64,000 bases of DNA, taken from NCBI GenBank assembly GCA_016180435.1, contig JACPBG010000002.1:60342-124341 (forward strand), written 5' to 3'. The notes beneath the pieces are model-generated. The model did no database searches and had not been told where the DNA came from. It was given only the letters and a program-made list of their open reading frames with translations. Below are positions 11,244 to 29,671 of the stretch, in pieces; position 1 is the stretch's first letter, and each line of letters starts with the position of its first letter. Made by a program: the position numbers and the translations under genes. This DNA is from Candidatus Sungiibacteriota bacterium (GTDB lineage Bacteria > Patescibacteriota > Minisyncoccia > Sungbacterales > HO2-52-23).

Positions 11244-11307
11244 AAGAACTAAGATTTTAGAACTTAGCAAATTTTCTAAGTTCTAAGTTCTGGGTTCTAA
11301 GTTCTAT
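11244..11307. repeat. TAGAAC-family palindromic element, intergenic copy between rpmJ and rpsM
   Basis: atcaagaactaagattttagaacttagc...ttctaagttctaagttctgggttctaagttctat. Confidence 0.7.
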
Positions 11308-12230: not shown

Positions 12231-12323
12231 AGCACTTAGAACTTAGAACCTAGAACTTAGAATTTATAATTAAAGTATTTACTAAGTTCTAAATACTAAG
12301 ATCTAAGTTCTTTTGCGAAGCAA
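12231..12323. repeat. TAGAAC-family palindromic element plus mini-hairpin TTTTGCGAAGCAAA immediately 5' of the rpsD ATG
   Basis: agcacttagaacttagaacctagaacttagaattt...actaagttctaaatactaagatctaagttcttttgcgaagcaaATG. Confidence 0.7.
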
Positions 12324-12950: not shown

Positions 12951-13074
12951 GACAGTGATGCCAATCCGATGCGAATTTAATGCCAATTTGGCGAATTGCG
13001 AATGAATTTAAAGATTAGCAATTTGTAGATTAGCATTTTATTTGTAGATTTGCATCATTGCGTGCGAAGCATAT
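12951..13074 (+). repeat. repeat family B copy 1: conserved ~120-bp leader upstream of rpoA
   Basis: gtgatgccaatccgatgcgaatttaatgccaa...ggcgaattgcgaat...agcaatttgtagattagcat...tttgtagatttgcatcattgcgtgcgaagca; second copy at 29548..29671 ends the same way before the frr ATG. Confidence 0.7.
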
Positions 13075-14043
13075 ATGAGTATTCCACTTCCTTTAGCACC
13101 GAAGGCCGTTAGCGAAGAAGGAAATCGCGCTGTTTTTGATATAGAGGGGCTTTATCCGGGTTACGGCCATACCATCGGCAACAGTATGCGCCGCGTTTTA
13201 TTGTCATCTTTGCGTGGCGCGGCTATAACGTCCGTAAAAATAGAAGGCGTTTCCCACGAATTTTCTACTATAGAAGGAATTATGGAAGATGCGGTGGAGA
13301 TCATTCTAAACTTGAAACAGCTTCGTTTTCGCTTATATCAGGAAGAACCGGTCATGATCTCTCTTTCGGTTAAAGGCGAGCGGGAAGTAATCGGCAAGGA
13401 CTTTAAACTCCCGTCACAGGTGGAATTAATCAATCCGGATTTGCATATAGCGACTATTTCGTCCAAAAAATCCGGTTTGAGCATGGAGGCCACTGTGGAG
13501 GCGGGCATGGGTTACATTCCGGTGGAGGAGCGCACCAAGGAAAAAGTTGAAATAGGCGTGATCGCTTTAGATGCCGCATTTTCTCCGGTTCGCTATGTAA
13601 ATTATGATGTAGAGAATATGCGAGTCGGAGATCGCACCGATTATAATCGTCTGCGCCTTACCGTTGAGACTGATGGCTCGATTACTCCGCGTGAGGCATT
13701 TTTGCAGGCGGCCAGTATATTGGTTGAACAATTTTCCGTTCTAATCAAGGAAATGGAATCAAGTTCGGTAGAAATTGCACCTTCCGAAGAATATGCGCGG
13801 GGCGTATCCGAAGAGGCGGAAAAATCCGCCGGAGGCGAGGAGGATACATCCAAAATGAAGCTGGATGATCTGAAGTTATCCGGGCGCACCTTGAATATTC
13901 TGAAAGAATCCGGTATCAAGACCGTGGGAGGCCTTTCGCGTAAAAAAGAATCGGCGCTTCGGGAACTTGAAGGGATGGGGGATAAAGGGATGCAGGAAAT
14001 AAAGAAAGCGCTTGGAAATTTTGGAATTACTTTGAAGCCGTAA
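13075..14043 (+). CDS. rpoA: DNA-directed RNA polymerase subunit alpha
   Basis: LYPGYGHTIGNSMRRVLLSSLRGAAITSVKIEGVSHEFSTIEGIMEDAVEIILNLKQ; C-terminal domain present. Confidence 0.9.
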   Translation: MSIPLPLAPKAVSEEGNRAVFDIEGLYPGYGHTIGNSMRRVLLSSLRGAAITSVKIEGVSHEFSTIEGIMEDAVEIILNLKQLRFRLYQEEPVMISLSVKGEREVIGKDFKLPSQVELINPDLHIATISSKKSGLSMEATVEAGMGYIPVEERTKEKVEIGVIALDAAFSPVRYVNYDVENMRVGDRTDYNRLRLTVETDGSITPREAFLQAASILVEQFSVLIKEMESSSVEIAPSEEYARGVSEEAEKSAGGEEDTSKMKLDDLKLSGRTLNILKESGIKTVGGLSRKKESALRELEGMGDKGMQEIKKALGNFGITLKP

Positions 14044-14067
14044 TATTATAAATCTTCGGCTAATTTG

Positions 14068-14181
14068 ATTTCAGACACGACTCGGCGGCTCCGGCGGCCG
14101 CCTCGCTAAGGGTCGGACAAATTTTCGTCCCGATTGCGATCGGGACGATCCGAGCAAATTTGTCCTCCCATTGTCTGAAAT
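14068..14181 (+). repeat. repeat family A copy 2, upstream of rplQ
   Basis: tttcagacacgactcggcggctccggcggccgcctcgctaagggtcggacaaattttcgtcccgattgcgatcgggacgatccgagcaaatttgtcctcccattgtctgaaa. Confidence 0.7.
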
Positions 14182-14250
14182 CAAAATAGCCTCGATTTAA
14201 TCCAAGCTAATTACGAATTCTAAAATTTCCAACGCTAACGATGAAAAAAT

Positions 14251-14595
14251 ATGAGGAAGTTGAAAAAAGGGAGAAAATTTGGGAGAGAACGGGATCAAAG
14301 GAGGGCGTTACTTAAAAGTCTCGCCTCCTCATTTTTTATTGCGGGACGAATGAAAACAACGGAAGCCAAAGCCAAAGAACTCCGCCCGTATGTCGAGAAA
14401 TTCATTACCCGAGCCAAGGATCCGACACTCGCAAATCGAAGATTCATGCTGCGTTTTTTTTCGAGCGCAATTGTTGATAAAATTATTAAGCGTGGTGAGG
14501 AAATGCGTGAGAGAGCCGGAGGATATACCAGGGTTATTAAATTGGGACAGAGAAAACGAGATAGCGCGAGGATGGCGATATTGGAATTTGTTTAA
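14251..14595 (+). CDS. rplQ: 50S ribosomal protein L17
   Basis: RKFGRERDQRRALLKSLASSFFIAGRMKTTEAKAKELRPYVEKFITRAK. Confidence 0.9.
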   Translation: MRKLKKGRKFGRERDQRRALLKSLASSFFIAGRMKTTEAKAKELRPYVEKFITRAKDPTLANRRFMLRFFSSAIVDKIIKRGEEMRERAGGYTRVIKLGQRKRDSARMAILEFV

Positions 14596-14667
14596 AGAAC
14601 TTAGAACTTAGAACTTAGAACTTAGATATCTACTAAGTTTTAAATGCTAAGTTCTAAATGCTATGCG
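14596..14667. repeat. TAGAAC-family palindromic element plus mini-hairpin TGCGATGGAGCATCGCA spanning the rplM start
   Basis: aaagaacttagaacttagaacttagaacttagatatctactaagttttaaatgctaagttctaaatgctatgcgatggagcatcgca. Confidence 0.7.
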
Positions 14668-15009
14668 ATGGAGCATCGCATTGATGCAGCTAATCAAATA
14701 CTCGGACGTCTGGCAACTCGCGTTGCGGTTCTTTTGCGCGGTAAAGATCGGCCTGATTTTGATCCGGCGCGTTTTTCCGATAACAAGGTGGCGGTTCATA
14801 ATACCGATAAAATGCGCGTGACCGGAAAGAAGATGCCGCAAAAAAAATATCGGCGGCATTCCGGTTACCCCGGCGGCTTGAAAGAAGAAGCGCTTGAGCG
14901 CCTTTTCGCACGCGACTCGCGTGAGGTTTTGCGCCGCGCGGTTTTAGGGATGCTCCCGAAAAATCGCCTGCGCAGTAGATGGATAAAGAATCTGATACTA
15001 CGTAAATAA
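14668..15009 (+). CDS. rplM: 50S ribosomal protein L13
   Basis: HRIDAANQILGRLATRVAVLLRGKDRPDFDPARFSDNKVAVHNTDKMRVTGKKMPQKKYRRHSGYPGGLKEE. Start taken at ATG 14668 inside the hairpin; the ORF track starts at 14644. Confidence 0.85.
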   Translation: MEHRIDAANQILGRLATRVAVLLRGKDRPDFDPARFSDNKVAVHNTDKMRVTGKKMPQKKYRRHSGYPGGLKEEALERLFARDSREVLRRAVLGMLPKNRLRSRWIKNLILRK

Positions 15010-15026
15010 CAAATGGTAAATGGCAG

Positions 15027-15061
15027 ACAACTAACAACTAACAACTAACAACTAACAACTT
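15027..15061. repeat. tandem heptamer (ACAACTA/CAACTAA) x ~4.5 directly upstream of rpsI
   Basis: acaactaacaactaacaactaacaactaacaact. Confidence 0.8.
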
Positions 15062-15066
15062 AGGGT

Positions 15067-15666
15067 ATGCCAAAGGCAATTAAGAAAAAAATAGAAAGTA
15101 AGCCCGTGGAAAAAGAAGCGGAAACGCCGAAAAAGAAAGTTGAAGAAAAAGAAAATAAGATTAAAACCGCGGTGAAAGTAAAAAAACCTTCTAAACAGGG
15201 GGCAGAAGTTCCGGCACAAGAAATCTCGTCAGGATTCTCGGAACATAAAACGGATAAAGCAGAAAAGCCCAAAAAACCGGAGCGTTATTTTGAGGCGGTG
15301 GGCAGAAGAAAAACCGCAGTGGCTCGCGTGCGGTTATTTACCCGGCCCGGGGACTTTACGGTAAATGGCAGGTTATACAGTTTATATTTTCCGACTTTAA
15401 CGCTCCAGCAAATTATTGAGGATTCGTTGAAGAAAATGAAGCTTTTGGGAAGATTCAGGGTGTCAATTAAGGTCTCCGGCGGAGGAACTCATGCCCAAGC
15501 CGAGGCCATTCGCCACGGACTCGCGCGCTGTTTGGTTAAATTCAATCCGGATTTTCGCAAGCGTTTGCGACGTGCCGGATACATTACACGCGACCCACGC
15601 GCCAAAGAAAGGAAGAAATTCGGCTTGAAAAAGGCGCGTAAAGCTCCGCAGTGGGCGAAGCGGTAA
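15067..15666 (+). CDS. rpsI: 30S ribosomal protein S9 with ~75-aa Lys/Glu-rich N-terminal extension
   Basis: C-terminal YFEAVGRRKTAVARVRLF...GGGTHAQAEAIRHGLARCL...RDPRAKERKKFGLKKARKAPQWAKR is canonical S9; N-terminus MPKAIKKKIESKPVEKEAETPKKKVEEKENK... is low-complexity. Confidence 0.85.
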   Translation: MPKAIKKKIESKPVEKEAETPKKKVEEKENKIKTAVKVKKPSKQGAEVPAQEISSGFSEHKTDKAEKPKKPERYFEAVGRRKTAVARVRLFTRPGDFTVNGRLYSLYFPTLTLQQIIEDSLKKMKLLGRFRVSIKVSGGGTHAQAEAIRHGLARCLVKFNPDFRKRLRRAGYITRDPRAKERKKFGLKKARKAPQWAKR

Positions 15667-15810
15667 TTGCGCTCCCCAGACACGCTGTCTGCATCAATGT
15701 TTATGAGGATTTTTGAAAAACACGGGTTCACGACAAAAGTATGAGAAGCGCACAAATAGCACCGCATACGCGGCGTCTTCAGGGATTTGAAAATAACTGA
15801 ATTTGAACAA

Positions 15811-15836
15811 TAGCCGCGATGACCGCGGCTATTGTG
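15811..15836 (+). terminator. hairpin, candidate terminator or boundary of the r-protein transcription unit
   Basis: aatagccgcgatgaccgcggctattg. Confidence 0.4.
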
Positions 15837-15897
15837 TTATTATTACTTCTATGTTACTATTATTTCGGTTCATTTTCATAAATTATGGAGGAAGCAA

Positions 15898-16932
15898 ATG
15901 AGTGATAGGAAAGCACCGTATGACACCAATGAAGGAATTCAGCGTGCCGTCAAAACGTTGCATAAACTTAACGAGTTGGTGGCGAATCGCCATAGGGCTG
16001 GGTATGAAAGACATGAACGACTCAAGGAATTCTATGTCCTTGGACGGTGGCGTACTGACTCTTGTGGCAATTTTGGAAAGATCATCTCTGAGTTTATCCC
16101 GAAATTAAAGTTCCCCCAGATCCCCGACGTTTTAACCAACGAAGAGTTTTGGGCATTCTTGGGGGCGCAAGGGCTTGATGTTGAGAAAACCTTTGTTTCA
16201 AGCGGAATGTCGAACGACCTACCGCCTGATGACATCGTATGTTGTGTTTGCCAGCAGTCGTGGACTATTGAAAATTGCCATGACGTAGTTATCACCCATC
16301 AGCATCAGGATTTTTCATTGTCAGAGTTCGTTGGGAGACAGCTTTGGGAGGTACAACGGGTATACGGTATGCGAATTGATGCTTGCTACCGTATGCAGCC
16401 AGACATTCTTATTCGTAACGATCGATTCATTGATCTACGTCCGGAGCCAGAATTTGAAACGCTCAAAAGGAATGAGCATGGATGGGTGGGCAAAGAAGAT
16501 GGAGTTACGGAAAACTATGTGATTCAGTCAGGTGATGATGGGTTTTTCAACGTCTGGCATTTTCATCATCATGCGTGTAGTCGGAAAAAGCTCGAAGCTG
16601 ATATGCGGCAGCAATTCCGTGATGTACTCACAAAAGCGGGTTTTGCTAACACAATCCTCAAGTCAATTCCGAATCAGTATTGCCCATGTGAGCATTGTGC
16701 TCCGTGGTTCGTGGTACGGACTGAACATGGTACATTTACGATCGGATGGCGAAAGCGCGTCATCAATATCGATTGGAAGGCGACTGGTAAGAACTTTCTG
16801 CCGCTTTTCGACGATCAGGACGTTACGAAAGACAACCACTTGATTCATGCATGGGGTTACGAAAAAGCTACTGAATATTTTACGAGGATTAAGGGGTTTC
16901 TCATTCAGTCCGAGGCGTTAACTCAACGTTAA
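15898..16932 (+). CDS. Cys/His-rich hypothetical protein, putative metal-binding, unknown function
   Basis: ORF 15832..16932; start taken at ATG 15898 behind GGAGGAAGC. Contains CCVCQQSW, HQHQD, WHFHHHACSRKK and CPCEHCAPW. Codon usage unlike neighbouring core genes. Confidence 0.5.
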   Translation: MSDRKAPYDTNEGIQRAVKTLHKLNELVANRHRAGYERHERLKEFYVLGRWRTDSCGNFGKIISEFIPKLKFPQIPDVLTNEEFWAFLGAQGLDVEKTFVSSGMSNDLPPDDIVCCVCQQSWTIENCHDVVITHQHQDFSLSEFVGRQLWEVQRVYGMRIDACYRMQPDILIRNDRFIDLRPEPEFETLKRNEHGWVGKEDGVTENYVIQSGDDGFFNVWHFHHHACSRKKLEADMRQQFRDVLTKAGFANTILKSIPNQYCPCEHCAPWFVVRTEHGTFTIGWRKRVINIDWKATGKNFLPLFDDQDVTKDNHLIHAWGYEKATEYFTRIKGFLIQSEALTQR

Positions 16933-16938
16933 ACAAGA

Positions 16939-16967
16939 CTGCCTGGCTCTGCCAGCAGTTTTTATTT
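16939..16967 (+). terminator. rho-independent terminator after the Cys/His-rich gene
   Basis: ctgcctggctctgccagcag followed by tttttatttt. Confidence 0.7.
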
Positions 16968-17136
16968 TCAAAAACCTAAAGTCCACCACGCCTCAAAGCA
17001 TTGCAGTGGGCGAAGAGATAGACTAGCTTTCGTATGTTGACCCCAAAGACCGAACTAAAAAGTTTGGTCTTTTGGGTGAGGGGTAGGCGGGGAAGACCGA
17101 AATATTCTTGAGTCTTGGGTGGGGAAAAGCCCCTAC

Positions 17137-17193
17137 TTGACAAATTACCGGGATTCCCGGTAAGATTAATTTAATATCTAATTCCCGGTATTT
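17137..17193 (+). promoter_or_regulatory. candidate promoter with operator-like palindrome upstream of the GHKL ATPase gene
   Basis: TTGACA (17137-17142); palindrome ACCGGGATTCCCGGT in the spacer; half-site ATTCCCGGTA repeated at 17181-17190 just before ATG 17194. Confidence 0.45.
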
Positions 17194-18156
17194 ATGAAAA
17201 TATATCTTCCCCATAGTGCATTTTTAGGGAATATTGATCCATTCCTGGCGGCCTTTGACCCTAGCCATAAGGAAAAGCTCGAAATTACCGCTAATAAAAA
17301 TTGGATTTTTGTTCACCCCGTTGTATTAGCAATGGTAGCGGCGTTAGGTTTAACAGTTTATCGAAAAAATATTAAATGTGAAAAGATAGTGGCACGTTCG
17401 GGTCACTACCTTGAAAGGATGGGTTTATTCAAATTTCTTGATATTAAATCAGGGATGAAGATAACCGAACACGATCCATCGGGGCGATTCGTTCCACTAA
17501 CACAGATAAAAACCTCTGAACAACTCACAAAGTTTCTAACCGAAATGATTCCACTGCTTCATTTAGAACCTCGACATGCCGAACCAATCAAATATATTAT
17601 TAGTGAATTGGTGAGAAACGTGTTAGAGCACGCTCGTGCACCACAAGGAGCTATCGTATCTGCTCAATATCATGCAAAAAATAAAACAATTCGCATAGGA
17701 ATAGTTGATCGTGGTAGTGGTATAAAAAGCACAATTAATCAATCATGGGATGCAAGTAATGATCTTGAGGCTATTAAGTTGGCACTTATGCCGGGAGTTA
17801 CAGGAACTACAAAAAGAGAAGGCGGAACAGAACAAAATGCTGGAGCAGGTTTATTTTTTATTAAATCAATTGCTTATGTGAATCGTAATTTTTTTATGAT
17901 CTATAGCGGAAACGCAATGTATAAACTTCTGAAAAGAAGTGGCGCTAAAAAAATTATGCTTCATGCTAACCCCAATCTTGACAGACACTCAGAAAGAAAT
18001 AACTTACCTTATTGGGATGGTACGGCGGTGGGTGTAGATATTTCTTTAGATACTACACAAGAATTTACTGCACTTCTTGATCTTATAAGAGATACTTACT
18101 CGGAGGCAGTTAAAGAGCGTAAGCGTAATAGATATAAAAGGGCTAAATTTATTTAA
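17194..18156 (+). CDS. GHKL-superfamily (histidine-kinase-like / RsbW-like) ATP-binding protein with ~110-aa N-terminal domain of unknown function
   Basis: N-box ELVRNVLEHA, G1 IGIVDRGSGI, G2 GAGLFFIKS. Low GC (~37%) versus ~48% in flanks. Confidence 0.6.
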   Translation: MKIYLPHSAFLGNIDPFLAAFDPSHKEKLEITANKNWIFVHPVVLAMVAALGLTVYRKNIKCEKIVARSGHYLERMGLFKFLDIKSGMKITEHDPSGRFVPLTQIKTSEQLTKFLTEMIPLLHLEPRHAEPIKYIISELVRNVLEHARAPQGAIVSAQYHAKNKTIRIGIVDRGSGIKSTINQSWDASNDLEAIKLALMPGVTGTTKREGGTEQNAGAGLFFIKSIAYVNRNFFMIYSGNAMYKLLKRSGAKKIMLHANPNLDRHSERNNLPYWDGTAVGVDISLDTTQEFTALLDLIRDTYSEAVKERKRNRYKRAKFI

Positions 18157-18161
18157 ATATT

Positions 18162-18449
18162 ATGGTTACTATCGAACTTTTTCCCTTAGTGGGGGGCTTT
18201 GCGGAAAACAAGGATATTGCAAGAGACATAAGACGAGACCAAATTCTTCCAGCTCTGAAGAATGGAGAAAGTGTTGTCTTGGATTTTAGTGGCATAGAAT
18301 CTACAACACAATCTTTCGTTCACTCCTTAATTAGTGATGTAATGAGGGAATACGGGAGTGACGTTATGGATAAATTAGTATTTAAAAATTGCAGTGAAAC
18401 CATACAAAAAATCATCAGTATAGTTGTGGACTATATGCAGCAAACATAA
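18162..18449 (+). CDS. small STAS-like (anti-sigma-antagonist-like, DUF4325-like) protein, probable partner of the upstream ATPase
   Basis: 95 aa starting 6 bp after the ATPase gene; VVLDFSGIESTTQSFVHSLI resembles STAS-like folds. Assignment is from memory of the family and is tentative. Confidence 0.4.
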   Translation: MVTIELFPLVGGFAENKDIARDIRRDQILPALKNGESVVLDFSGIESTTQSFVHSLISDVMREYGSDVMDKLVFKNCSETIQKIISIVVDYMQQT

Positions 18450-18590
18450 TTTGTCTCAGTTAAAGACGTATTACGGTTCGCCCTGCGGAATTTTTTATAC
18501 GGACTTTTTATTTTCTCGCGTAAATTTTATTTGAAAAAACGCGAAAATAAAATGTCATCCGAAAGGATGACGTTTCTATATAGATACGCC

Positions 18591-19148
18591 CTAATGATAT
18601 GGAGAAAATGTCGCCTCTTTTAATCGCCAGTGTAATTTTATTCCCGCTTGATCTTCCGCAAAAATATCTTTCACGAAGTTGTCGAAACGAGCCGAGAATG
18701 GATACTTTTGCAAAGTAAGGTCGGCCAGAAGATGCAGCTTGTCTATCGGAAAGCGCTTCAGGCAAAATACATATGCCTCGGCAATGTCTGATCTTGAGCA
18801 TCCCTCGTCCCTTTCCCGCGGCCAGATACGATGCAGTACTGAAATCATCTTCAGTTTAAATTCGGAGTTTCCGAACCGCAAAAGAAAAAGAAGGAGCTGG
18901 CGGATTGTTCCTGCAAAAAAGATTTCCCAGCTCCTGCTTTTTCGTGCGGCTGAACCTTGTTTATAAAGACCCAATTTCCACCATAGTTCGGCGGGTCTGC
19001 TGTCCGGCATTTTCAGCACTTTCCATTGATATAACATCCAGTCAAGAACGCCGGGAACTGCAACCTCTTTTTGATAGCAGATTTTTTCTAAATCATGAAG
19101 CGCCAGTGGATACTTCTTTTTAAAAGTAGCACTTGTATGCCAAGGCAT
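18591..19148 (-). CDS. hypothetical protein, possibly an all-helical (heme-oxygenase/TenA-like) fold
   Basis: 185-aa ORF; RBS AGGAGA upstream of its ATG on the - strand. Confidence 0.4.
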   Translation of the reverse strand: MPWHTSATFKKKYPLALHDLEKICYQKEVAVPGVLDWMLYQWKVLKMPDSRPAELWWKLGLYKQGSAARKSRSWEIFFAGTIRQLLLFLLRFGNSEFKLKMISVLHRIWPRERDEGCSRSDIAEAYVFCLKRFPIDKLHLLADLTLQKYPFSARFDNFVKDIFAEDQAGIKLHWRLKEATFSPYH

Positions 19149-19274
19149 TTATTTATCTCCTATAGCTGGTATGAGCTTCACACAAGATAACAAAAAAACG
19201 TTATTTTGTCAATCTTGCAAAATAGTACAGATTATGCTATTTTAGTTTTAGTTCATTTTTCGCGTAGGTGCAAT

Positions 19275-19514
19275 ATGTCTAGTTGGCTGGATACGGAAAA
19301 AGGTCAAGAATTTTTCAAAAAAGCCTTTGAGGTTGCCGATTTGCCGGAGGTTGATGGAGATGTCTTGGAGCAAGGCACATACACCAACCGTCAAATCGCC
19401 GAAAAAGCCGGAAGCCCAGAAAAATTGCTGTCATTGCTTATGAATGTATCCGGTGATCGGGCGACGAAAAGATCGATCCTTAGTTTCGCCGTGGAAATGG
19501 ATTTAGAAGATTAA
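19275..19514 (+). CDS. hypothetical small protein
   Basis: ORF 19206..19514; start taken at ATG 19275 (MSSWLDTEKGQEFF...). Confidence 0.3.
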   Translation: MSSWLDTEKGQEFFKKAFEVADLPEVDGDVLEQGTYTNRQIAEKAGSPEKLLSLLMNVSGDRATKRSILSFAVEMDLED

Positions 19515-19554
19515 GTTTAGTAAGTTTTACCGCATGGTTTGCCCTGCGGCTTTT

Positions 19555-22460: not shown

Positions 22461-22517
22461 ACTTATATTGTAGCAATTTTGCGGGCGTTTGAAAATAACG
22501 CCTTTTCACGCTACGAT

Positions 22518-23831: not shown

Positions 23832-23850
23832 TTATCGCTCGGCATTTCGT

Positions 23851-23956
23851 TTTCAAGACACGCAAATTTTTGCCAGCGCAAAAATTTGCTAAGGGTCGGC
23901 GAAGTTTTCCGCCAAAGGCGGAACCATGCAAACTTCGCCTCCCATTGTCTTGAAAA
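23851..23956 (+). repeat. repeat family A copy 3 (diverged, compensatory substitutions keep all stems)
   Basis: ttcaagacacgcaaatttttgccagcgcaaaaatttgctaagggtcggcgaagttttccgccaaaggcggaaccatgcaaacttcgcctcccattgtcttgaa. Confidence 0.65.
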
Positions 23957-24014
23957 CAAAATGCTTCGCATAATTTCAATCTTTTGGTGAGAGGAGAGGA
24001 AAAGGAGCAATTTT

Positions 24015-25025
24015 ATGTTTATTAGAAAAATAGGAATTGATCTTGGCACTGCCAACACCTTGGTGTTTGTGCCCAAAAAAGGGGTGGTGGTGAATGAGCC
24101 ATCCGTGGTTGCGGTTTCCAAATACGAGAACGCGGTTTTGGCCGTGGGAAATGAAGCGCGGGATATGATCGGCAGAACACCCGAAACCATTGTGGCGTAC
24201 CGTCCTTTGCGGGATGGAGTTATTGCGGATTATCGCGTGACCGAGGCCATGTTGCGCTATTTTATTTCCAAAGCCAGCGGCCGGGTTCGGCTTTTTCGTC
24301 CGGAAGTAATGGTTTCGGTGCCGGCCGGAGTCACATCCACCGAGCGTCGGGCCGTGATTGAAGCTACGGTGCAGGCCGGGGCCAAGGCCGCTTATGTGGT
24401 AAAAGAGCCGGTGTTGGCCGCCATCGGCGCCGGAATCCCTATTAATGAGCCGGCCGGACATATGGTGGTGGATATTGGCGGAGGCACATCGGATGTGGCG
24501 GTTATTTCACTTGGCGGAATAGTGGCATCCACTTCGGTAAAAGTTGCCGGAAACAAATTGGATCAGGCCATTGCCGATTATATCAAGCGCCATTATAATC
24601 TTGCGATCGGCGACCGGACTGCGGAAAATATGAAAATAAAAATTGGGTCAGCCGTGCCTATGGATGATCCAAAAATGAAAATGGAAATCAAGGGGCGCGA
24701 TTTGATGTCCGGTTTGCCGCGCACCATAGAGATCCATTCTATGGAAGTTACCGAGGCGATTTCGGATGAGTTGGATGAGATAATCCATGCGGTAAAATCC
24801 GTTTTGCATGATACTCCGCCCGAACTCGCGGCAGATATAATGGACCGGGGAATTGTAATGACCGGAGGCGGATCGCTTCTGCGAAATATTGACGAGCTGG
24901 TATTTCAGGAAACCGGCGTGCCGGCGCATGTGGCGGATGAGGCGCTTTTATGCGTGGCCAAGGGCACCGGAATCGCTTTGGAGCATTTGGATGTTTATAA
25001 ACGCAGTATCATGTCTAAGCGGTAA
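24015..25025 (+). CDS. mreB: rod shape-determining protein MreB, orphan paralog
   Basis: IGIDLGTANTLVFVPKKGVVVNEPSVVAV...VVDIGGGTSDVAVISLGGIV. Confidence 0.9.
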   Translation: MFIRKIGIDLGTANTLVFVPKKGVVVNEPSVVAVSKYENAVLAVGNEARDMIGRTPETIVAYRPLRDGVIADYRVTEAMLRYFISKASGRVRLFRPEVMVSVPAGVTSTERRAVIEATVQAGAKAAYVVKEPVLAAIGAGIPINEPAGHMVVDIGGGTSDVAVISLGGIVASTSVKVAGNKLDQAIADYIKRHYNLAIGDRTAENMKIKIGSAVPMDDPKMKMEIKGRDLMSGLPRTIEIHSMEVTEAISDELDEIIHAVKSVLHDTPPELAADIMDRGIVMTGGGSLLRNIDELVFQETGVPAHVADEALLCVAKGTGIALEHLDVYKRSIMSKR

Positions 25026-25161
25026 AGCGCGGCTCCCTTGGTATATTACAGAAAAAAGACGCTCGCAGGGTGTTAAATCTTTAAATTCTTAAATTTTAGC
25101 GATCCCATTACTTACTGTTATAAAAAATAGTTCCCGAGTTAAGTTAAGGGACTACCCTTGA

Positions 25162-25812
25162 ATGATAATAAAAAAATTTTTACATTCCTGTATTTTACTT
25201 GAGGAACAAGGGCGAAGACTCCTTATTGACCCCGGTGATATGTCGTTTTTCGAGAAGAAAATATCACCCGAAGATATCGGTGGGGCGGATGTTATAGTTT
25301 TTACTCATAGGCATAGTGACCATTTAGATCTAGACATATTAAAAAAATTTTTAAGTTTGAAACAAGCTAAAATTTTGGCTCATGAAGAAATTGGTAAAAA
25401 ACTAAAGGAGTCGGATATTCCATACACATCGATATCTGCGGGTGAGACGAAAATAGTTGAAGGATTTACTATCGAAACAATTGAGGCGCCGCATGGACAT
25501 GGTTTAAGTGTGCCCTCGCCGTATAATCTCGGCTTTAAAATAGACAATGCATTTTTTCATCCCGGCGACTGTGTCTCGTTAGAAAACATTGAAACTAAAG
25601 TTTTGGCACTTCCCGTTATGGGTTCTTGGATGCGTTTTCCGGAGGCAGTATTATTTGCTAAACGAGTAAAGCCACAGTATGTAATTCCTATTCATGATGC
25701 ACTTATTGGGGACGTATTCATTGATAGGGTTTACGACTATTATCGAGGGCCATTAGAAAAAGACGGCATTTCCTTTTATCAGCTTGGATTAGATAATTCG
25801 CTTGAGATATAA
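25162..25812 (+). CDS. MBL-fold metallo-hydrolase
   Basis: VIVFTHRHSDHLD (HxHxDH motif). Confidence 0.65.
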   Translation: MIIKKFLHSCILLEEQGRRLLIDPGDMSFFEKKISPEDIGGADVIVFTHRHSDHLDLDILKKFLSLKQAKILAHEEIGKKLKESDIPYTSISAGETKIVEGFTIETIEAPHGHGLSVPSPYNLGFKIDNAFFHPGDCVSLENIETKVLALPVMGSWMRFPEAVLFAKRVKPQYVIPIHDALIGDVFIDRVYDYYRGPLEKDGISFYQLGLDNSLEI

Positions 25813-25909
25813 CCCCATGTCGCTAACATTAAATTGAATACTTGGAGAAAAGAATGGTTTGCTGAAGACAGCCGTCTTCGGTGGGTAGTATTAAAATATT
25901 TTAAATTTT

Positions 25910-26302
25910 ATGTCGCGTGAAGGATTACAACCAATTGTTCCGGAATCCAATCCGGCGGTTAAGAAATTAAGCCCGCATGAGATAAGTGCGCAAAAAGTGC
26001 GTAAAGAATTTAATGAGAACGTGCAAGATGTTTTACCGCTGGTTAAACGTGCGCACTCTTTGAAAGAGCTTTGGCAAGCAGTTGATACCATAGAAAAATG
26101 GAGGAGTGACGTAGATCTTGCCAAAGATCAGGGCCAAGATATACCAGATCCGCGCGAGGACGAACAAGTAATGAAAGAATATTTGCTTCGATATACGTCA
26201 GGACCGCATCGGGATATTTCTCCGATTTTTAAAGAAGGAAGAAATATATTAAAAGACGAAGTCGCGAAAAAAATTAAAGAACTGGGATTATCTGAGAAAT
26301 AG
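25910..26302 (+). CDS. hypothetical protein
   Basis: 130-aa acidic ORF. Confidence 0.35.
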   Translation: MSREGLQPIVPESNPAVKKLSPHEISAQKVRKEFNENVQDVLPLVKRAHSLKELWQAVDTIEKWRSDVDLAKDQGQDIPDPREDEQVMKEYLLRYTSGPHRDISPIFKEGRNILKDEVAKKIKELGLSEK

Positions 26303-26322
26303 TCAAAGAATTCCTCAATTTT

Positions 26323-26703
26323 ATGTCTGGAGGAAATCCATTTAAAGGATTAAAACTTAAACCAGCGCAGGAGAAAGAAGAAGTTAAAGAACAACCGGCT
26401 CCGGCGCCGCGGATTATCACCAAGCCAAAAAAATATTTGGAATCCGTGGGCATTACTGATTATACCTACGAAGAAAAAGCGGACGGAGTGCATTTTTATA
26501 TTAAGTTGTCCCCGGAAGACATGGAGGAAAAAATAAAACAAGCTCGATATGTTATTAATGCGCCGCCGTTAACTCCATTTCAAAGAGAAAAGTTGTTGCC
26601 ATTTGTAAAATTGATGAAACAGGATAGGAAGCTTGATTGTAAAGTTTTAGACGGAAATGCGTCCCGTCCCAATTTATTGGAGGTAGTTGTCTTTAAAAAG
26701 TAA
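26323..26703 (+). CDS. hypothetical protein
   Basis: 126-aa ORF. Confidence 0.35.
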   Translation: MSGGNPFKGLKLKPAQEKEEVKEQPAPAPRIITKPKKYLESVGITDYTYEEKADGVHFYIKLSPEDMEEKIKQARYVINAPPLTPFQREKLLPFVKLMKQDRKLDCKVLDGNASRPNLLEVVVFKK

Positions 26704-26727
26704 ACCACCCGACTGGATGTCGGGCGG
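26703..26727 (-). terminator. terminator hairpin of paralog P1, conserved with the one after P2
   Basis: - strand: cgcccgacatccagtcgggtgg followed by tttacttttt. Confidence 0.55.
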
Positions 26728-26760
26728 CGATATGATGGGAAAGGATGGCGGGTTTTGTGA

Positions 26761-27153
26761 TCACGAGGCGGTGATATTTAGAAAAAATCCGTCGGGATGA
26801 TGCGTGATAGAAAGACCCGGGCCAGTGGTGCGAAGGAAAAGGTTTCCTTCAAGATCGGGATTCTCGGCAAACGTTTTACGCGTTTTCCGTTCAAGCACTG
26901 GCAACCTGCATAGGTCTGGAATATCCAGGCCGGTAGCGCCATCTATCACGCTTAGATAGAAATCCGCACCATCCCTTTCTATCCGTATGTTCGCATCTCC
27001 ATCGGTAAAAATAGTGACTGCGTCTATACCTATTGTAGGAGAGAGCACGCGATGGAGTGATGTTGCGACCGCATCCGTTCCTCCCATCAAAACCAGTTGT
27101 CCGTCCTCGTCCTTAAACTGGGATAATATAGCCCTGAGATTTGTGAGATCCAT
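26761..27153 (-). CDS. hypothetical protein, paralog P1 of 31390..31875
   Basis: ORF 26761..27186; start taken at ATG 27153 behind GAGGAGG. Shares IFTDGDANIRIERDGADFYLSV with P2 (LVTDGDADITIIRRDDELFYVTV) and a similar N-terminus. Confidence 0.45.
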   Translation of the reverse strand: MDLTNLRAILSQFKDEDGQLVLMGGTDAVATSLHRVLSPTIGIDAVTIFTDGDANIRIERDGADFYLSVIDGATGLDIPDLCRLPVLERKTRKTFAENPDLEGNLFLRTTGPGLSITHHPDGFFLNITAS

Positions 27154-27170
27154 ATGTAAAAGTCCTCCTC

Positions 27171-27199
27171 TGACTAAGATACCCAAATTATACTATAAT
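27171..27199 (+). promoter_or_regulatory. sigma-70-type promoter for holB
   Basis: TGACTA, 17-bp spacer, TATAAT; GTG start follows 17 nt later. Confidence 0.5.
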
Positions 27200-27215
27200 A
27201 GTATTTAAAAGTCAA

Positions 27216-28199
27216 GTGATTATCGGGCACGAACGGCAAATTGAATATCTGGAAAAAATCATAAGACGCGGGCGCATGTCCCACGCCTATTTATTTTTTG
27301 GTCCGGAACATGTAGGAAAATTCGCATTAGCCAAGGAAATTGCGCGTGTTTTAATGTGCCCGAATAAGAATAAGATCGGCGATGCCGGAGACGGATGCGC
27401 GGATTGCCGTCAAATTGAACAGGATATTCATCCCGGCGTAATAATTCTTGATATTGAACACACTCTTGTCTCCAAGAAAGAAATTCGTAAAGACATTCCG
27501 ATTGAAGATATACGGGAACTGAAACGCCGATTTTCTTTTGCTCCGGAGCAAGGAAAGTGGCGGATCGCTATAATTAATGAAGCGGAGAAATTAAGTGCCG
27601 AGGCCGCCAATGCGTTTTTGAAATTATTGGAAGAGCCGGGAGCGCGGACTCTTTTTTTGCTGGTAAGTTCGACGTATGATTCGGTTTTGCCGACCATTGT
27701 TTCGCGCGCCGAGCCGCTTAGATTTTCTTTGGTGTCAGATGCGATTTTGCGTGAATTTTTAGAACAAAAAAAGATAAGTCAAGATCAACGGGAATCTATT
27801 TTGAAACTTGCGGCCGGGCGCTCCGGGATTGCCATAAGATCCGTCGAGGATCCGTCTTATTTCATAAAACAGAAAAAAATACGGGATGAAATTGAATCAA
27901 TCCTCTCGTGCAAAGATATTCCGTCGGCTCTGGCCCTTACCGAGCGGGTTGCCAAAGACAAGGAGATGTTGAAAACCGCGGCTGATTTTTTGATCCGTTC
28001 ATTGCGCGATAACATCATCGCAACCATTCTGGAGTCCAAGACGTATCATACCAAAGTGGGACGGCTTAAAGAGATCCACCGCATTCTTTCCATAATAGAG
28101 TCCACCAACGTCAATCCGCGTCTGGCTATGGATGTGATGTTGATGGAGGCGTTAACCACTAACAGCACGAACAGCTTTGTCTATGGGTTTAGGTTGTAG
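27216..28199 (+). CDS. holB: DNA polymerase III delta-prime subunit (clamp-loader AAA+); last ~20 codons supplied by repeat E
   Basis: MSHAYLFFGPEHVGKFALAKEIARVLMCP...GCADCRQI; SRAEPLRF. Confidence 0.8.
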   Translation: MIIGHERQIEYLEKIIRRGRMSHAYLFFGPEHVGKFALAKEIARVLMCPNKNKIGDAGDGCADCRQIEQDIHPGVIILDIEHTLVSKKEIRKDIPIEDIRELKRRFSFAPEQGKWRIAIINEAEKLSAEAANAFLKLLEEPGARTLFLLVSSTYDSVLPTIVSRAEPLRFSLVSDAILREFLEQKKISQDQRESILKLAAGRSGIAIRSVEDPSYFIKQKKIRDEIESILSCKDIPSALALTERVAKDKEMLKTAADFLIRSLRDNIIATILESKTYHTKVGRLKEIHRILSIIESTNVNPRLAMDVMLMEALTTNSTNSFVYGFRL

Positions 28200-28275
28200 A
28201 TGCCGGTATGGCGGGAGGGTTTTAGGCATAAGGCCCTAAAACTAATACCCTAAAACCGGACCGGCTTCTAAAACA
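28140..28275. repeat. repeat family E copy 1 (~130 bp), inverted relative to 43141..43270
   Basis: Reverse complement of 28165-28275 aligns base for base, with few mismatches, to gttttagaagccagtctggttttggggtattagttttaaggccttatacctaaaaccc...gcatctacaacctaaacccatagacaa at 43141. Confidence 0.7.
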
Positions 28276-28292
28276 TACACCTCATAACAGTT

Positions 28293-29543
28293 TTGTTGGT
28301 GTTGTTTGCGAAATTGAGAATTTTACTTGCTATTTTAGTTGTTATACTTGTAATTGTCGTTGTCTTCCCGTTTGTTTTGAATATGGCAGGTTTATCTGCG
28401 CCGCAGTTTGCTTTCGTAGGAGATGCGGCAAGCGAACGCGCCGGTGAAGCCGGCATATGGCGTTCGGAAAACGGCGGCATATCCTGGAAAGAAATAAGAT
28501 TTCAAACCGGAGGCAACCCATTGCCGTTATCCATCCATGATTTGACGTTCCATCCCCATTATCGCGATACAGTATTGATGGGAACGCGGGGAAATGGACT
28601 TTGGAAAAGCGATAATAACGGCATGTCATGGAAAAGAATCAATGACCGCGCGGGTATTTTGCAAAATAATGCGGATATTTACGGGGCGGCAGTAAGTCCG
28701 GCAAGCCCCGCGGTTTGGTATGTGGCTGCATATCAAAACGGCCGCGGGGAAGTATTGAAGAGTTTGGACGGCGGATCAAGTTTTGCAAAGATATATCATT
28801 TAAACGGGGGCGGAATTCCGATTGTCGGCCTATTCGCATATGCCGATAATTCTGAGCGGGTTCTTATTGCTACGGCCAATGGCGGTTTTTTGCAGACAAG
28901 CGACGGAGGCGCAAGTTGGGGATCCGTTTCATGGAGTTCCGGAAATATTACAGCCATACGCGTGAACCCGGCAAACCCGGACGAAATAATTATTTGGATA
29001 GCCGGAGGTAAAATAATGCGCTCGCAAGATGGCGGCCTGACTTGGCGTAGTGTTAATTCACCGGACCGGGGCGAAACTTCCGGGATGTTTTCGTATAATG
29101 GTCCGCGCGTGGGACAAGAATCCGCCGGTTTGAGTACTGATTCCTTGCCGCCGGATAATTCATCCAAGCCGGGTTTTCAATTTGATCTTGGAGCGATTTT
29201 TTCACCCTTGAATAAGGGATCCGATGATTTTATAATAAGTCCATCGGATAGGAGAGCGCGTTATTTAAAATCCGGAAGTAATATTTATCGTTCGGGAGAC
29301 GGCGGCGGCTCATGGAATCCGGTCCACACCTCGCTTTCTCCGCGTACGCGTTTGGATGCGGTTGCCGTTGATCCGTTCAATGCTGATAATGTTTTTTTTA
29401 CAGCGTCCGGGGAATTTCATAAGAGTACGGATGGCGGCGCTACGTGGGAAATGCGCGATTTGCCGCCCAATATGAAGGGAAGAATTAGAATATTACGGAT
29501 AAGTACGCATAATCCAGAGATAATGTTTGCGGTGACACAATAA
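28293..29543 (+). CDS. BNR/Asp-box repeat protein, membrane-anchored (Ycf48/sialidase-like beta-propeller)
   Basis: Seven S-x-D-x-G-x-T/S-W boxes: SENGGISW, SDNNGMSW, SLDGGSSF, TSDGGASW, SQDGGLTW, SGDGGGSW, STDGGATW; N-terminal TM. Confidence 0.7.
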   Translation: MLVLFAKLRILLAILVVILVIVVVFPFVLNMAGLSAPQFAFVGDAASERAGEAGIWRSENGGISWKEIRFQTGGNPLPLSIHDLTFHPHYRDTVLMGTRGNGLWKSDNNGMSWKRINDRAGILQNNADIYGAAVSPASPAVWYVAAYQNGRGEVLKSLDGGSSFAKIYHLNGGGIPIVGLFAYADNSERVLIATANGGFLQTSDGGASWGSVSWSSGNITAIRVNPANPDEIIIWIAGGKIMRSQDGGLTWRSVNSPDRGETSGMFSYNGPRVGQESAGLSTDSLPPDNSSKPGFQFDLGAIFSPLNKGSDDFIISPSDRRARYLKSGSNIYRSGDGGGSWNPVHTSLSPRTRLDAVAVDPFNADNVFFTASGEFHKSTDGGATWEMRDLPPNMKGRIRILRISTHNPEIMFAVTQ

Positions 29544-29547
29544 AAGC

Positions 29548-29671
29548 AGTGATGCCAATCCTATGCGAATTTAATGCCAAGCTGGCGAATTGCGAATAAT
29601 TATTAGCATAATTAGCAATTTGTAGATTAGCATAAGATTTGTAGATTTGCATCATTGCGGTGCGAAGCACA
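29548..29671 (+). repeat. repeat family B copy 2, leader upstream of frr
   Basis: agtgatgccaatcctatgcgaatttaatgccaagctggcgaattgcgaat...tttgtagatttgcatcattgcggtgcgaagcacaATG. Confidence 0.7.

What the first reader, a model, noticed from the sequence alone, without database searches (positions are those of the whole stretch)
12951..29671. Conserved ~120-bp leader shared by rpoA and frr, and a TGCGAAGCA mini-hairpin placed immediately 5' of many start codons
12951-13074 and 29548-29671 align along their full length (GTGATGCCAATCC-ATGCGAATTTAATGCCAA...GGCGAATTGCGAAT...TTTGTAGATTTGCATCATTGCG-TGCGAAGCA) and end 2-5 nt before the rpoA and frr ATGs. The terminal TGCGAAGCA hairpin (stem TGC/GCA, loop GAA) also appears as TTGCGAAGCAA just before the rpsK and rpsD starts. 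Variants sit at rplM and at the vestigial trxB start. This points to a shared translational or transcriptional control motif for highly expressed genes. Because it covers the RBS position, it may be a structured initiation signal in an organism with weak SD usage.
Basis: seen in the sequence. Interest (0 to 1): 0.5.

Follow-up and report, generated by a model that had tools for sequence, protein, structure and literature searches.

The report
Palindromic repeat insertions between operon genes
The shared "leader" of rpoA and frr is two copies of a hairpin-forming repeat that this Candidatus Sungbacteria lineage acquired between its genes, and the small TGCGAAGCA hairpin is most likely the tail of such repeats, not a conserved start signal.

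Summary
12953-13072 and 29546-29670 are 89% identical. Each is one long imperfect hairpin followed by a (G)TGC-GAA-GCA mini-hairpin that ends 1-3 nt before the rpoA or frr ATG. The exact 9-mer occurs 5 times against 0.58 expected; four copies abut start codons.

The interpretation as a conserved control leader is not supported. Relatives with 81-91% identical RpoA carry unrelated hairpin families in the rpsD-rpoA spacer. Relatives at 66-70% have plain spacers of 20-46 nt. The closest Frr relative (91%) has a plain 18-nt spacer before frr, and a complete Sungiibacteriota genome has none. None of them carries the mini-hairpin. The same 120-nt family sits in another spacer (rpsK-rpsD) in one relative.

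The window holds several palindromic repeat families. Some are inserted in frame inside mnmA and gdh. Short GC-rich hairpins follow most AGAACTT-type long hairpins, including copies inside genes.

Best reading: REP/MITE/RPE-like palindromic insertions into very short spacers, transcribed with the operon. They are probably tolerated because folding keeps the stop and start codons adjacent. An active role in SD-independent re-initiation or mRNA processing is not excluded. The genome-wide test could not be run.

The parts
12953..13060 (+). Long imperfect hairpin, copy 1 of the '120-nt' palindromic repeat, filling the rpsD-rpoA spacer
   Evidence: It has 7 G-U pairs of 46; sense strand -41.5 against antisense -26.4 kcal/mol.
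13062..13072 (+). Mini-hairpin G-UGC-GAA-GCA-U, 2 nt before the rpoA ATG (13075)
29546..29658 (+). Long imperfect hairpin, copy 2 of the same repeat, filling the spacer between the BNR/Sortilin-like gene and frr
   Evidence: Differences from copy 1 lie mainly in unpaired positions: 4/92 paired against 9/28 unpaired, p=2e-4.
29660..29670 (+). Mini-hairpin GUGC-GAA-GCAC, 1 nt before the frr ATG (29672)
11708..11771 (+). AGAACTT-heptamer long hairpin in the rpsM-rpsK spacer
11772..11786 (+). Mini-hairpin UGUUGC-GAA-GCAACA abutting the rpsK TTG start (11787)
12231..12311 (+). AGAACTT-heptamer long hairpin in the rpsK-rpsD spacer
12313..12323 (+). Mini-hairpin UUGC-GAA-GCAA abutting the rpsD ATG (12324)
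14601..14657 (+). AGAACTT-heptamer long hairpin in the rplQ-rplM spacer
14663..14681 (+). 7-bp hairpin AUGCGAU-GGAGC-AUCGCAU that contains the rplM ATG (14668). Its sequence differs from the TGCGAAGCA hairpin.
52467..52534 (+). AGAACTT-heptamer long hairpin upstream of trxB
52535..52551 (+). Variant mini-hairpin ACGUUGC-CGA-GCAACGU in front of a vestigial trxB start (TTG 52551/52554, reading LYDVIIIGG). The intact trxB starts at 52622.
11245..11298 (+). AGAACTT-heptamer long hairpin before the rpsM GTG (11310), with no mini-hairpin
116..202 (+). AGAACTT-type hairpin plus a following GCGGC-CGAT-GCCGC hairpin, inserted in frame inside mnmA
   Evidence: The segment RTKSLELRTKKNLMLSSKSYILSS aligns largely as an insertion (13 gap columns) against solved MnmA structures.
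54711..54766 (+). AGAACTT-type 3' arm plus a 10-11-bp GAATCGCAAC...GTTGCGATTC hairpin, inside the glutamate dehydrogenase gene

Best explanation
Both halves of the finding belong to lineage-specific, dispersed palindromic repeats of the REP/MITE/RPE kind. These repeats have been inserted into the very short intercistronic spacers of this Candidatus Sungbacteria genome.

Shown: the '120-nt leader' is two copies of one such family. The AGAACTT-heptamer hairpins before rpsM, rpsK, rpsD, rplM and trxB are another family.

Inferred: the TGCGAAGCA mini-hairpin is the 3'-terminal module of a composite unit (long AT-rich hairpin plus short GC-rich hairpin) that was copied within this genome. It touches start codons because the ancestral spacers were only 0-46 nt long, so any insert ends next to the start codon.

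Inferred: the elements are transcribed as internal parts of the operon mRNA and extrude as a hairpin. This leaves the upstream stop codon and the downstream start codon close together. That would let the termination-reinitiation coupling already implied by the tight ancestral spacers continue, and would explain why the inserts are tolerated. Under this reading they carry no rpoA- or frr-specific regulatory information.
For: 1. Orthologous rpsD-rpoA spacers. The RpoA relatives at 91, 85, 84, 84 and 81% identity all carry long hairpins, belonging to four families unrelated to the window's. The relatives at 70% and 66% have plain spacers of 20 and 46 nt.

2. Spacers before frr. The Frr 91% relative has a plain 18-nt AT-rich spacer. 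The 86% relative has a hairpin of yet another family. The complete genome CP066690.1 has a 0-nt spacer.

3. The 120-nt family recurs in relative L152 in the rpsK-rpsD spacer, without a mini-hairpin. The AAGCAAAA/ACGC family is shared by L152, L161 and L154 at different spacers.

4. TGCGAAGCA is absent from start regions in all relatives. One-mismatch variants occur at chance level. This fits recent copying and not a degenerate motif under selection.

5. Repeats of the other families sit in frame inside mnmA and gdh as insertions relative to solved structures.

6. Hairpin potential in the 3' flank of the 9 AGAACTT-type hairpins, including copies inside genes, exceeds that of random windows (combined p=4e-5). 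For the 5' flanks p=0.14.

7. The elements contain no promoter-like or terminator-like sites and match no Rfam family.

8. Contigs from independent assemblies end inside these repeats.
Against: 1. The two 120-nt copies are strand-specific: 6-7 G-U pairs each, and the sense strand is 12-15 kcal/mol more stable than the antisense strand. Their differences avoid paired positions (p=2e-4). This could reflect selection on the transcript.

2. All six genomes with at least 81% RpoA identity have some hairpin in the rpsD-rpoA spacer. That could mean a hairpin as such is needed there.

3. The identical 9-mer follows two unrelated long-hairpin families and always precedes a start codon in the window. 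A purely passive origin does not predict this.

4. Genes elsewhere in the window have unstructured AT-rich initiation regions, so these genes are real exceptions.

5. No transposase or RAYT gene was seen in the window, and no target-site duplication was found, so the means of spread is unknown.

6. Only two copies of the 120-nt family were seen.
Confidence: 0.55

Rival explanations
1. Structured, SD-independent re-initiation device. The long hairpin bridges the upstream stop codon and the downstream start codon. The GAA-capped mini-hairpin positions or stalls the terminating or scanning ribosome exactly at the start codon. The composite is therefore an active translational coupling signal in an organism without SD.
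For: 1. SD-like motifs are no more frequent than chance.
2. The hairpin-preceded genes have no single-stranded AT-rich leader, unlike other genes.
3. The hairpin begins 0-11 nt after the stop codon and ends 0-8 nt before the start codon in about 20 spacers of several families and genomes.
4. GTG and TTG starts occur among these genes.
5. The mini-hairpin lies 0-3 nt from five starts.
Against: 1. The mini-hairpin is absent from all relatives.
2. Spacers are empty in some close relatives: frr in L156 and rpsK-rpsD in L149.
3. The same kinds of hairpin also lie inside coding sequences.
4. Closeness to stop and start codons is expected anyway from ancestral spacers of 0-46 nt.
5. Predicted start-codon accessibility varies from 0.07 to 0.89.
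Confidence: 0.15
2. mRNA processing and stability element. The long duplex is a site for RNase III-type cleavage, or a barrier to 3' exonucleases, that splits the operon transcript. The mini-hairpin then acts as a 5' stabiliser of the downstream cistron.
For: 1. The near-perfect stems have 22-51 predicted base pairs and are internal to operons.
2. Two precedents come from established knowledge and were not tested here: REP/BIME elements stabilise upstream mRNA, and Correia elements are cut by RNase III.
3. GCGAAGC-type mini-hairpins are nuclease-resistant, although this was shown for DNA (PMC13037366).
Against: 1. Equally good hairpins lie inside mnmA and gdh, where cleavage would destroy the mRNA.
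2. No RNA data are available.
3. As RNA the mini-hairpins are predicted to be weak, -0.2 to -6 kcal/mol.
4. They are not conserved.
Confidence: 0.15
3. DNA-level function. The elements and the d(GCGAAGC) mini-hairpin fold in single-stranded DNA, for example the lagging-strand template, and act in replication priming, recombination or element mobility.
For: 1. d(GCGAAGC) is the classic extraordinarily stable DNA mini-hairpin found at ssDNA origins (PMC13037366).
2. The whole window has positive GC skew with co-oriented genes, so the + strand would be the lagging-strand template (inference).
3. G-T wobble pairs are also tolerated in ssDNA.
4. The co-resident R1 family co-varies almost only Watson-Crick to Watson-Crick, as expected for DNA palindromes.
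Against: Nothing links the motif to replication. Its position next to start codons is unexplained by this model. Only five copies were seen.
Confidence: 0.05
4. Conserved autoregulatory leader bound by a ribosomal protein (for example S4) or another factor that co-regulates rpoA, frr, rpsK and rpsD.
For: 1. All the genes concerned encode translation or transcription machinery.
2. The identical 9-mer is present at four starts.
3. The 120-nt copies show structure-preserving divergence.
Against: 1. It is not conserved at orthologous positions in any relative.
2. There is no Rfam ribosomal-leader match.
3. A variant also precedes trxB, which is not a translation gene.
4. One-mismatch variants are not enriched.
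Confidence: 0.03

Closest known systems
REP/BIME and REPIN elements of Proteobacteria
   Same: Short palindromic repeats dispersed in extragenic, often intercistronic, spaces. They are co-transcribed and form hairpins in the operon mRNA. They differ between close relatives.
   Different: REPs are about 20-40 nt, carry a conserved GTAG head and depend on RAYT transposases. Here the hairpins are 55-113 nt and their arms are built from units with a 7-11-nt period. No RAYT gene was seen in the window. Some families also insert inside genes.
Rickettsia palindromic elements (RPE; 'selfish DNA in protein-coding genes', from my own knowledge)
   Same: Palindromic repeats of about 100 bp in a reduced genome. 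They occur both between genes and in frame inside conserved protein genes (here mnmA and gdh).
   Different: The sequences are unrelated. In-frame copies were shown only for the AGAACTT and GC-rich families, not for the 120-nt family. RPEs have no heptamer periodicity.
MITEs such as Correia (Neisseria), ERIC, RUP and BOX (from my own knowledge)
   Same: Non-autonomous inverted-repeat elements inserted next to genes, transcribed with them, and folding into long hairpins.
   Different: No target-site duplication, terminal signature or parent IS element was identified here.
Heptamer direct repeats just upstream of start codons (TAACTGA in Beggiatoaceae, PMC4679880; cyanobacterial STRR)
   Same: Heptamer-periodic repeats lie within a few nt of start codons, including genes inside ribosomal-protein operons (S4). 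Those genes lack SD. The function is unknown, and a translational role has been proposed. The window also has a pure direct array, (ACAACTA)x4.9, before rpsI.
   Different: Those are direct arrays. Here most are arranged as inverted arrays that form hairpins.
d(GCGAAGC) extraordinarily stable mini-hairpin (PMC13037366)
   Same: The same heptamer: a GC/GC stem with a GAA loop.
   Different: It was characterised as DNA at ssDNA replication origins and promoters. There is no evidence here for a DNA-level role, and as RNA it is predicted to be only weakly stable.

Membership tests
Ribosomal-protein / alpha-operon regulatory leaders (Rfam families) | Match to a curated covariance model | tested here: not met
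   No match at gathering score in the whole window. At E<=10 only generic miRNA-precursor hairpin hits, far below threshold.
Ribosomal-protein / alpha-operon regulatory leaders (Rfam families) | Conservation at the orthologous position in related genomes | tested here: not met
   Relatives at 66-91% identity carry other hairpin families or plain short spacers.
REP / REPIN | Palindrome of about 20-40 nt with a conserved 5' GT(A/G)G head | tested here: not met
   The hairpins are 108-113 nt. GTAG occurs only inside the repeated 3'-arm unit TTTGTAGATT.
REP / REPIN | Cognate RAYT (IS200/IS605-like) transposase in the genome | not testable with these tools
   None among the 50 window ORFs scanned with Pfam.
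Dispersed repeat (REP/MITE in general) | Multiple copies at non-homologous sites in one genome, and the same family at different sites in related genomes | tested here: met
   There are two copies in the window, before rpoA and before frr. A family member lies in rpsK-rpsD of L152. The AGAACTT family has 9 copies in the window.
MITE | Terminal inverted repeats flanked by a target-site duplication | tested here: inconclusive
   The whole element is an inverted repeat. No direct duplication is visible at the two copies. In L143 against L149, flank sequence appears as an inverted, not direct, duplication.
RPE-like in-frame coding insertions | Palindromic repeat inserted in frame in a conserved protein, seen as an insertion relative to homologues | tested here: met
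   Met for the AGAACTT and GC-rich families in mnmA and gdh. Not observed for the 120-nt family.
Intrinsic terminator | GC-rich stem followed by a U-tract | tested here: not met
   No terminator-like site coincides with the elements or the mini-hairpins.
Sigma-70 promoter carried by the element | -35/-10 hexamers with 16-18-nt spacing | tested here: not met
   No promoter-like site lies in 12945-13075. The scan places sites upstream of infA instead.
TIGR arrays (PMC12045711) | Tandem 36-nt units of two alternating 8-12-nt repeats with 9-nt variable spacers, next to a Nop-domain Tas gene | tested here: not met
   There is no such unit structure and no Nop-domain protein in the window.
Start-codon-associated initiation motif | Enrichment at start codons genome-wide, independent of adjacent repeats | not testable with these tools
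   Only 64 kb was available. Within it, 4 of 4 + strand copies abut starts, but all four also directly follow a long hairpin. The source contig is absent from the DNA collections that could be searched.

The most novel reading that the evidence does not exclude
In SD-less Sungbacteria, an extruding long hairpin spanning stop to start, together with a GAA-capped mini-hairpin abutting the start codon, forms an active 'hairpin-bridged' termination-reinitiation module. The sequence is free to turn over, which would explain why different families occupy the same spacer. The geometry would be the selected feature, which would explain why every genome with at least 81% RpoA identity has some hairpin between rpsD and rpoA.
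Probability: 0.1. Interest if true: 0.75.

Novelty: new variant of a known kind. Interest (0 to 1): 0.35.

Why it matters
The finding shows that a candidate-phyla-radiation bacterium with a reduced genome tolerates long palindromic inserts in a constrained place: the spacers of the infA-rpsM-rpsK-rpsD-rpoA-rplQ-rplM operon and the spacer before frr. It also tolerates them in frame inside conserved enzymes. Unrelated hairpin families replace one another at the same sites among close relatives.

This is a warning against reading within-genome repeats as regulatory leaders.

It also raises a testable question. These organisms lack SD, and the whole initiation region of these genes is replaced by structure, so how are the downstream cistrons translated? 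If the hairpins prove necessary, they would define a new mode of translational coupling.

Tried and rejected
1. Known RNA family. Rfam gave no match at gathering score and only noise at E<=10.

2. Promoter or terminator inside the elements. None was found.

3. Locating the source genome for a genome-wide count.
- The nearest species-representative genome in genome contigs has only 59% RpoA identity.
- The exact RpoA was found only on 1.1-kb Logan contigs.
- A 19-mer of the element is absent from the JGI metagenome contigs.
So the genome-wide test could not be done.

4. Using the (AGAACTT)3 23-mer to collect more of this genome. It hit more than 120 unrelated contigs with GC 0.20-0.71 instead. 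That was no help for this organism. The arrays show no orientation bias toward nearby ORF starts, 39 against 45.

5. Strand-specific G-U pairing as a general sign of RNA-level selection. It holds for the two 120-nt copies but not for the AGAACTT family, and it is reversed for the ACGAACAG family of relatives. I rejected it as a general argument.

6. The mini-hairpin as an 'insulator' that keeps the start codon open. Predicted start-codon accessibility ranges from 0.07 to 0.89, so there is no support.

7. A general tendency for small hairpins before starts. On the contrary, the -22..-1 regions of genes are less structured than random windows.

8. TIGR array. Rejected (together with the Pfam scans).

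9. Mobility genes in the window. None was found.
Full report
**What is there**

The window comes from a Candidatus Sungbacteria (Patescibacteria/CPR) genome. Its RpoA is identical to a protein of an NCBI MAG of that name. The nearest species representative in the genome collection has only 59% identical RpoA.

The stretches 12953-13072 and 29546-29670 are 88.6% identical over 123 nt. Each folds into one long imperfect hairpin, 12953-13060 and 29546-29658, with z-scores of -4.6 and -5.0 against shuffles. A separate mini-hairpin follows each one: a (G)UGC/GCA(Y) stem with a GAA loop. Then comes the start codon, rpoA ATG 13075 or frr ATG 29672. The frr start is supported by nearly all listed Frr homologues being 180 aa. 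Pfam confirms RRF, L13, S9, TrxB and the other genes.

The 9-mer TGCGAAGCA occurs five times against 0.58 expected.
- Four copies are on the + strand. They lie directly before the starts of rpsK (TTG 11787), rpsD (ATG 12324), rpoA and frr.
- The fifth copy (23962-23970, - strand) is part of the outer stem of another repeat and is not at a start.
- A variant, ACGTTGC-CGA-GCAACGT, precedes a vestigial trxB start at 52551-52556.
- The hairpin at rplM has a different sequence and contains the start codon itself.

**Context in the window**

The window holds several families of palindromic repeats.

1. Hairpins whose arms are tandem AGAACTT/AAGTTCT heptamers (period 7). They occur before rpsM, rpsK, rpsD, rplM and trxB, and also inside mnmA (twice), gdh and a class II aminoacyl-tRNA synthetase gene.
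2. The 120-nt family, with two copies.
3. A GC-rich family at 507-558, about 52560-52610, and 54570-54621.
4. A branched element of about 115 nt, described under 'Side observations'.

Alignment to solved MnmA and glutamate dehydrogenase structures shows that the copies inside genes are translated, in-frame insertions. In mnmA the repeat reads ACT-AAG where the consensus ACT-TAG would give a stop codon.

The elements contain no promoter-like or terminator-like sites. The only good promoter-like sites in the region lie upstream of infA, so the hairpins are internal to the operon transcript. This last step is an inference.

**Translation signals**

SD-like 4-mers precede 8 of 70 genes, the same as in random sequence at 10%. 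Typical upstream regions are AT-rich, 68% against 55% for the window. They are less structured than random windows. The hairpin-preceded genes are real exceptions, because structure occupies their whole initiation region.

**Comparative test**

I fetched the same operon from relatives through RpoA and Frr homologues.

The rpsD-rpoA spacer:

| Locus | RpoA identity | Spacer content |
|---|---|---|
| L151 | 91% | ACGAACAG-type hairpin |
| L150 | 85% | CCGCAGAC-type hairpin |
| L143 | 84% | ACGAACAG-type hairpin |
| L149 | 84% | TAGCGTA-type hairpin |
| L152 | 81% | AAGCAAAA/ACGC-type hairpin |
| L153 | 70% | 20 nt, plain |
| L154 (complete genome CP066690.1) | 66% | 46 nt, plain |

The spacer before frr:

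| Locus | Frr identity | Spacer content |
|---|---|---|
| L156 | 91% | 18 nt, plain AT-rich |
| L161 | 86% | 92-nt AAGCAAAA/ACGC-type hairpin |
| L154 | not measured (RpoA 66%) | 0 nt |

The rpsK-rpsD spacer holds an AGAACTT hairpin in the window, the branched element in L143, 18 plain nt in L149 and 4 nt in L153. In L152 it holds a member of the window's own 120-nt family, with a shared 3' arm ATT(T/C)GTAGATT(A/T)GCAT...ATTTGTAGATT(T/C)GCATC and no mini-hairpin.

TGCGAAGCA is absent from the start regions of all relatives. Its one-mismatch variants in the window are not enriched.

The '120-nt leader' is therefore a lineage-specific insertion of a dispersed repeat, not a conserved leader of rpoA and frr. 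The ancestral spacers were very short. That alone explains why the inserts begin 0-11 nt after a stop codon and end 0-8 nt before a start codon.

**The mini-hairpin**

Measured as percentiles of folding energy against random windows, hairpin potential in the 25 nt after the nine AGAACTT-type long hairpins is significant (Fisher-combined p=4e-5). For the 5' flanks p=0.14. By inspection, six or seven of the nine are followed within 0-3 nt by a short, GC-richer hairpin:
- TTGCGAAGCAA, twice
- ACGTTGCCGAGCAACGT
- ATGCGATGGAGCATCGCAT
- GCGGCCGATGCCGC, inside mnmA
- GAATCGCAAC...GTTGCGATTC, inside gdh

Two of these lie inside genes with no start codon after them. The simplest reading is that a short terminal hairpin is part of a composite repeat unit. 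The exact TGCGAAGCA version would then have been copied a few times recently in this genome.

That reading is an inference, and the independent events are few. rpsK and rpsD share one composite; rpoA and frr share another.

**Evidence that keeps a functional reading alive**

- The two 120-nt copies have 6-7 G-U pairs each, and the sense strand is 12-15 kcal/mol more stable than the antisense strand.
- Their 13 substitutions avoid paired positions: 4/92 paired against 9/28 unpaired, p=2e-4.
- All six genomes with at least 81% RpoA identity have some hairpin between rpsD and rpoA.
- The same 9-mer follows two unrelated long-hairpin families.

Against generalising the G-U argument: the AGAACTT family shows no strand asymmetry, and the ACGAACAG family of relatives is more stable on the antisense strand. 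Predicted start-codon accessibility is inconsistent, 0.07-0.89.

**Mechanism proposed**

- Shown: these are dispersed palindromic repeats. They are not conserved at orthologous sites, they insert in spacers and in genes, and they carry no promoter or terminator consensus.
- Inferred: they are co-transcribed and extrude as hairpins, leaving stop and start codons juxtaposed. The coupled translation implied by ancestral spacers of 0-46 nt would then persist, which would make such spacers permissive sites.
- Not established: how the repeats spread. No transposase was seen in the window and there is no clear target duplication. It is also unknown whether RNase III or other nucleases act on them.

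**Comparison with known systems**

They work like REP/BIME elements, MITEs such as Correia, and Rickettsia palindromic elements, which also insert in frame in genes. They differ from these in having arms built of units with a 7-11-nt period, a composite long-plus-short hairpin design, and turnover of families at fixed operon positions.

The nearest published parallel for short-period repeats abutting start codons of SD-less genes is the TAACTGA direct repeat of Beggiatoaceae. It occurs inside ribosomal-protein operons, including before the S4 gene, and its function is also unknown (PMC4679880).

GCGAAGC is the classic extraordinarily stable DNA mini-hairpin (PMC13037366). Nothing here shows a DNA-level role.

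TIGR arrays, which are common in CPR, were considered and rejected.

My literature searches found no description of such intercistronic hairpin families in CPR. The library is incomplete, so this is weak evidence of novelty.

**Side observations**

The branched element of about 115 nt has conserved GACACG, CTAAGGGTCGG and CCTCCCATTGT segments. It shows strong covariation.
- In the 10-sequence alignment, 22 of 35 pairs have compensatory changes.
- In the 16-sequence alignment, 89% of cells are paired, and the covariation score is 0.68 against 0.19 for shuffles and at most 0.16 for slid controls.
- The window has five copies and Sungbacteria relatives have others. One copy is positionally conserved upstream of mreB in the 66% relative.
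- It has no Rfam match.
- Almost all changes are Watson-Crick to Watson-Crick: 7 one-sided against 151 two-sided. Copies occur in both orientations (L157, L158). This points to a DNA-level palindrome as much as to an RNA.

**Verdict**

The 'shared control leader' interpretation is not supported. The 'structured initiation signal' idea remains an unexcluded minority reading. I classify this as a new variant of a known kind (palindromic repeat insertions), of modest interest.

Noticed in passing
window 10957-11078, 14067-14188, 23850-23962, 30265-30381, 31009-31199; also L143 2104-2217, L149 1676-1794, L150 1782-1899, L151 1665-1786, L153 (4 copies), L154 15270-15385, L157 6472-6588(-), L158 209-325(-): A branched structured repeat of about 115 nt: outer stem, two inner hairpins, and conserved GACACG / CTAAGGGTCGG / CCTCCCATTGT segments. 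Covariation is very strong: in the 16-sequence alignment 25 of 35 pairs have changes on both sides, and the score is 0.68 against 0.19 for shuffles. It has no Rfam match and was found only in Sungbacteria loci. The copy upstream of mreB is positionally conserved in a 66%-identity relative. There are almost no G-U pairs and copies occur in both orientations, so it may be a DNA-level palindromic element and not an RNA.
   Followed up: yes
window 116-188 and 760-822 (mnmA), 507-558 (mnmA), 54570-54621 and 54711-54766 (gdh), 58768-58798 (class II aaRS): Palindromic repeats of the AGAACTT and GC-rich families lie in frame inside conserved protein genes. In mnmA and gdh they appear as 14-24-residue insertions relative to solved structures, as with Rickettsia palindromic elements; the aaRS copy was not aligned to a structure. 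In mnmA the repeat reads ACT-AAG where the consensus ACT-TAG would give a stop codon.
   Followed up: partly
It is often the 5' arm of a heptamer-built hairpin. It is always outside long ORFs, since the repeat has stop codons in all frames on both strands. It is often within 150 nt of an ORF start, with no orientation bias (39 against 45). The same heptamer array across such different genomes is unexplained.
   Followed up: partly
window 15027-15060: A perfect direct heptamer array, (ACAACTA)x4.9, ends 6 nt before the rpsI ATG (15067). There is no inverted partner. It resembles the TAACTGA arrays reported upstream of start codons in Beggiatoaceae (PMC4679880).
   Followed up: no
window 52551-52621: A vestigial trxB N-terminus (TTG-TAT-GAC-GTT-ATC-ATC-ATC-GGC-GGC, reading LYDVIIIGG) is followed by a GC-rich palindromic repeat. 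The intact trxB start (ATG 52622, MLYDVI...) comes after that. The 5' end of the gene seems to have been duplicated or replaced around a repeat insertion.
   Followed up: partly
window 25855-25879, 30432-30456, 31251-31275, 34453-34477: A conserved 25-mer, GGGTTTGCTGAATGTAGCCGCCTGC-like, has four copies. In at least two of them it runs into a GC hairpin followed by a T-run, which looks like a shared terminator module.
   Followed up: no
window 30215-31925: About 1.7 kb lies between frr and the ftsJ-like gene. It holds two copies of the branched repeat, a DUF3307 gene and a minus-strand ORF. In the complete relative CP066690.1 frr and ftsJ overlap by 4 nt. The called ORF 30211-30429 is probably spurious, because it is filled by a repeat.
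   Followed up: partly
window 35603-35707; L143 4341-4535: Another palindromic family has ends ACCCCGTTAGA(A/G)AGAAAC...GTTTCT...TCTAACGGGGT. It occurs in the window and, in relative L143, nested inside an ACGAACAG-type hairpin in the rplQ-rplM spacer. Repeats therefore insert into repeats.
   Followed up: no
L143 2088-2245 against L149 2743-2760: This compares a filled and an empty rpsK-rpsD spacer. The empty site reads TGATTTAAAATAATTATT. In the filled site TGATTTAA lies 3' of the element and its reverse complement TTAAATCA lies 5' of it. This is an inverted, not direct, duplication of flank sequence. It could mean that the stem extends by fold-back copying, or that the 'empty' site is a remnant of the element.
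   Followed up: no
window 38635-40593 and 41377-43101: Two large adjacent paralogous ORFs (652 and 574 aa) share internal repeats (families D4, D10, D19) and have no Pfam match.
   Followed up: no
L008, L013, L019 (other CPR, Moranbacteria-like); L153 3126-3262: Other CPR lineages carry their own long hairpins in the rpsD-rpoA or rpsM-rpsK spacer, with an A/C-rich 5' arm and a G/T-rich 3' arm. The phenomenon extends beyond this genus, with unrelated sequences.
   Followed up: no
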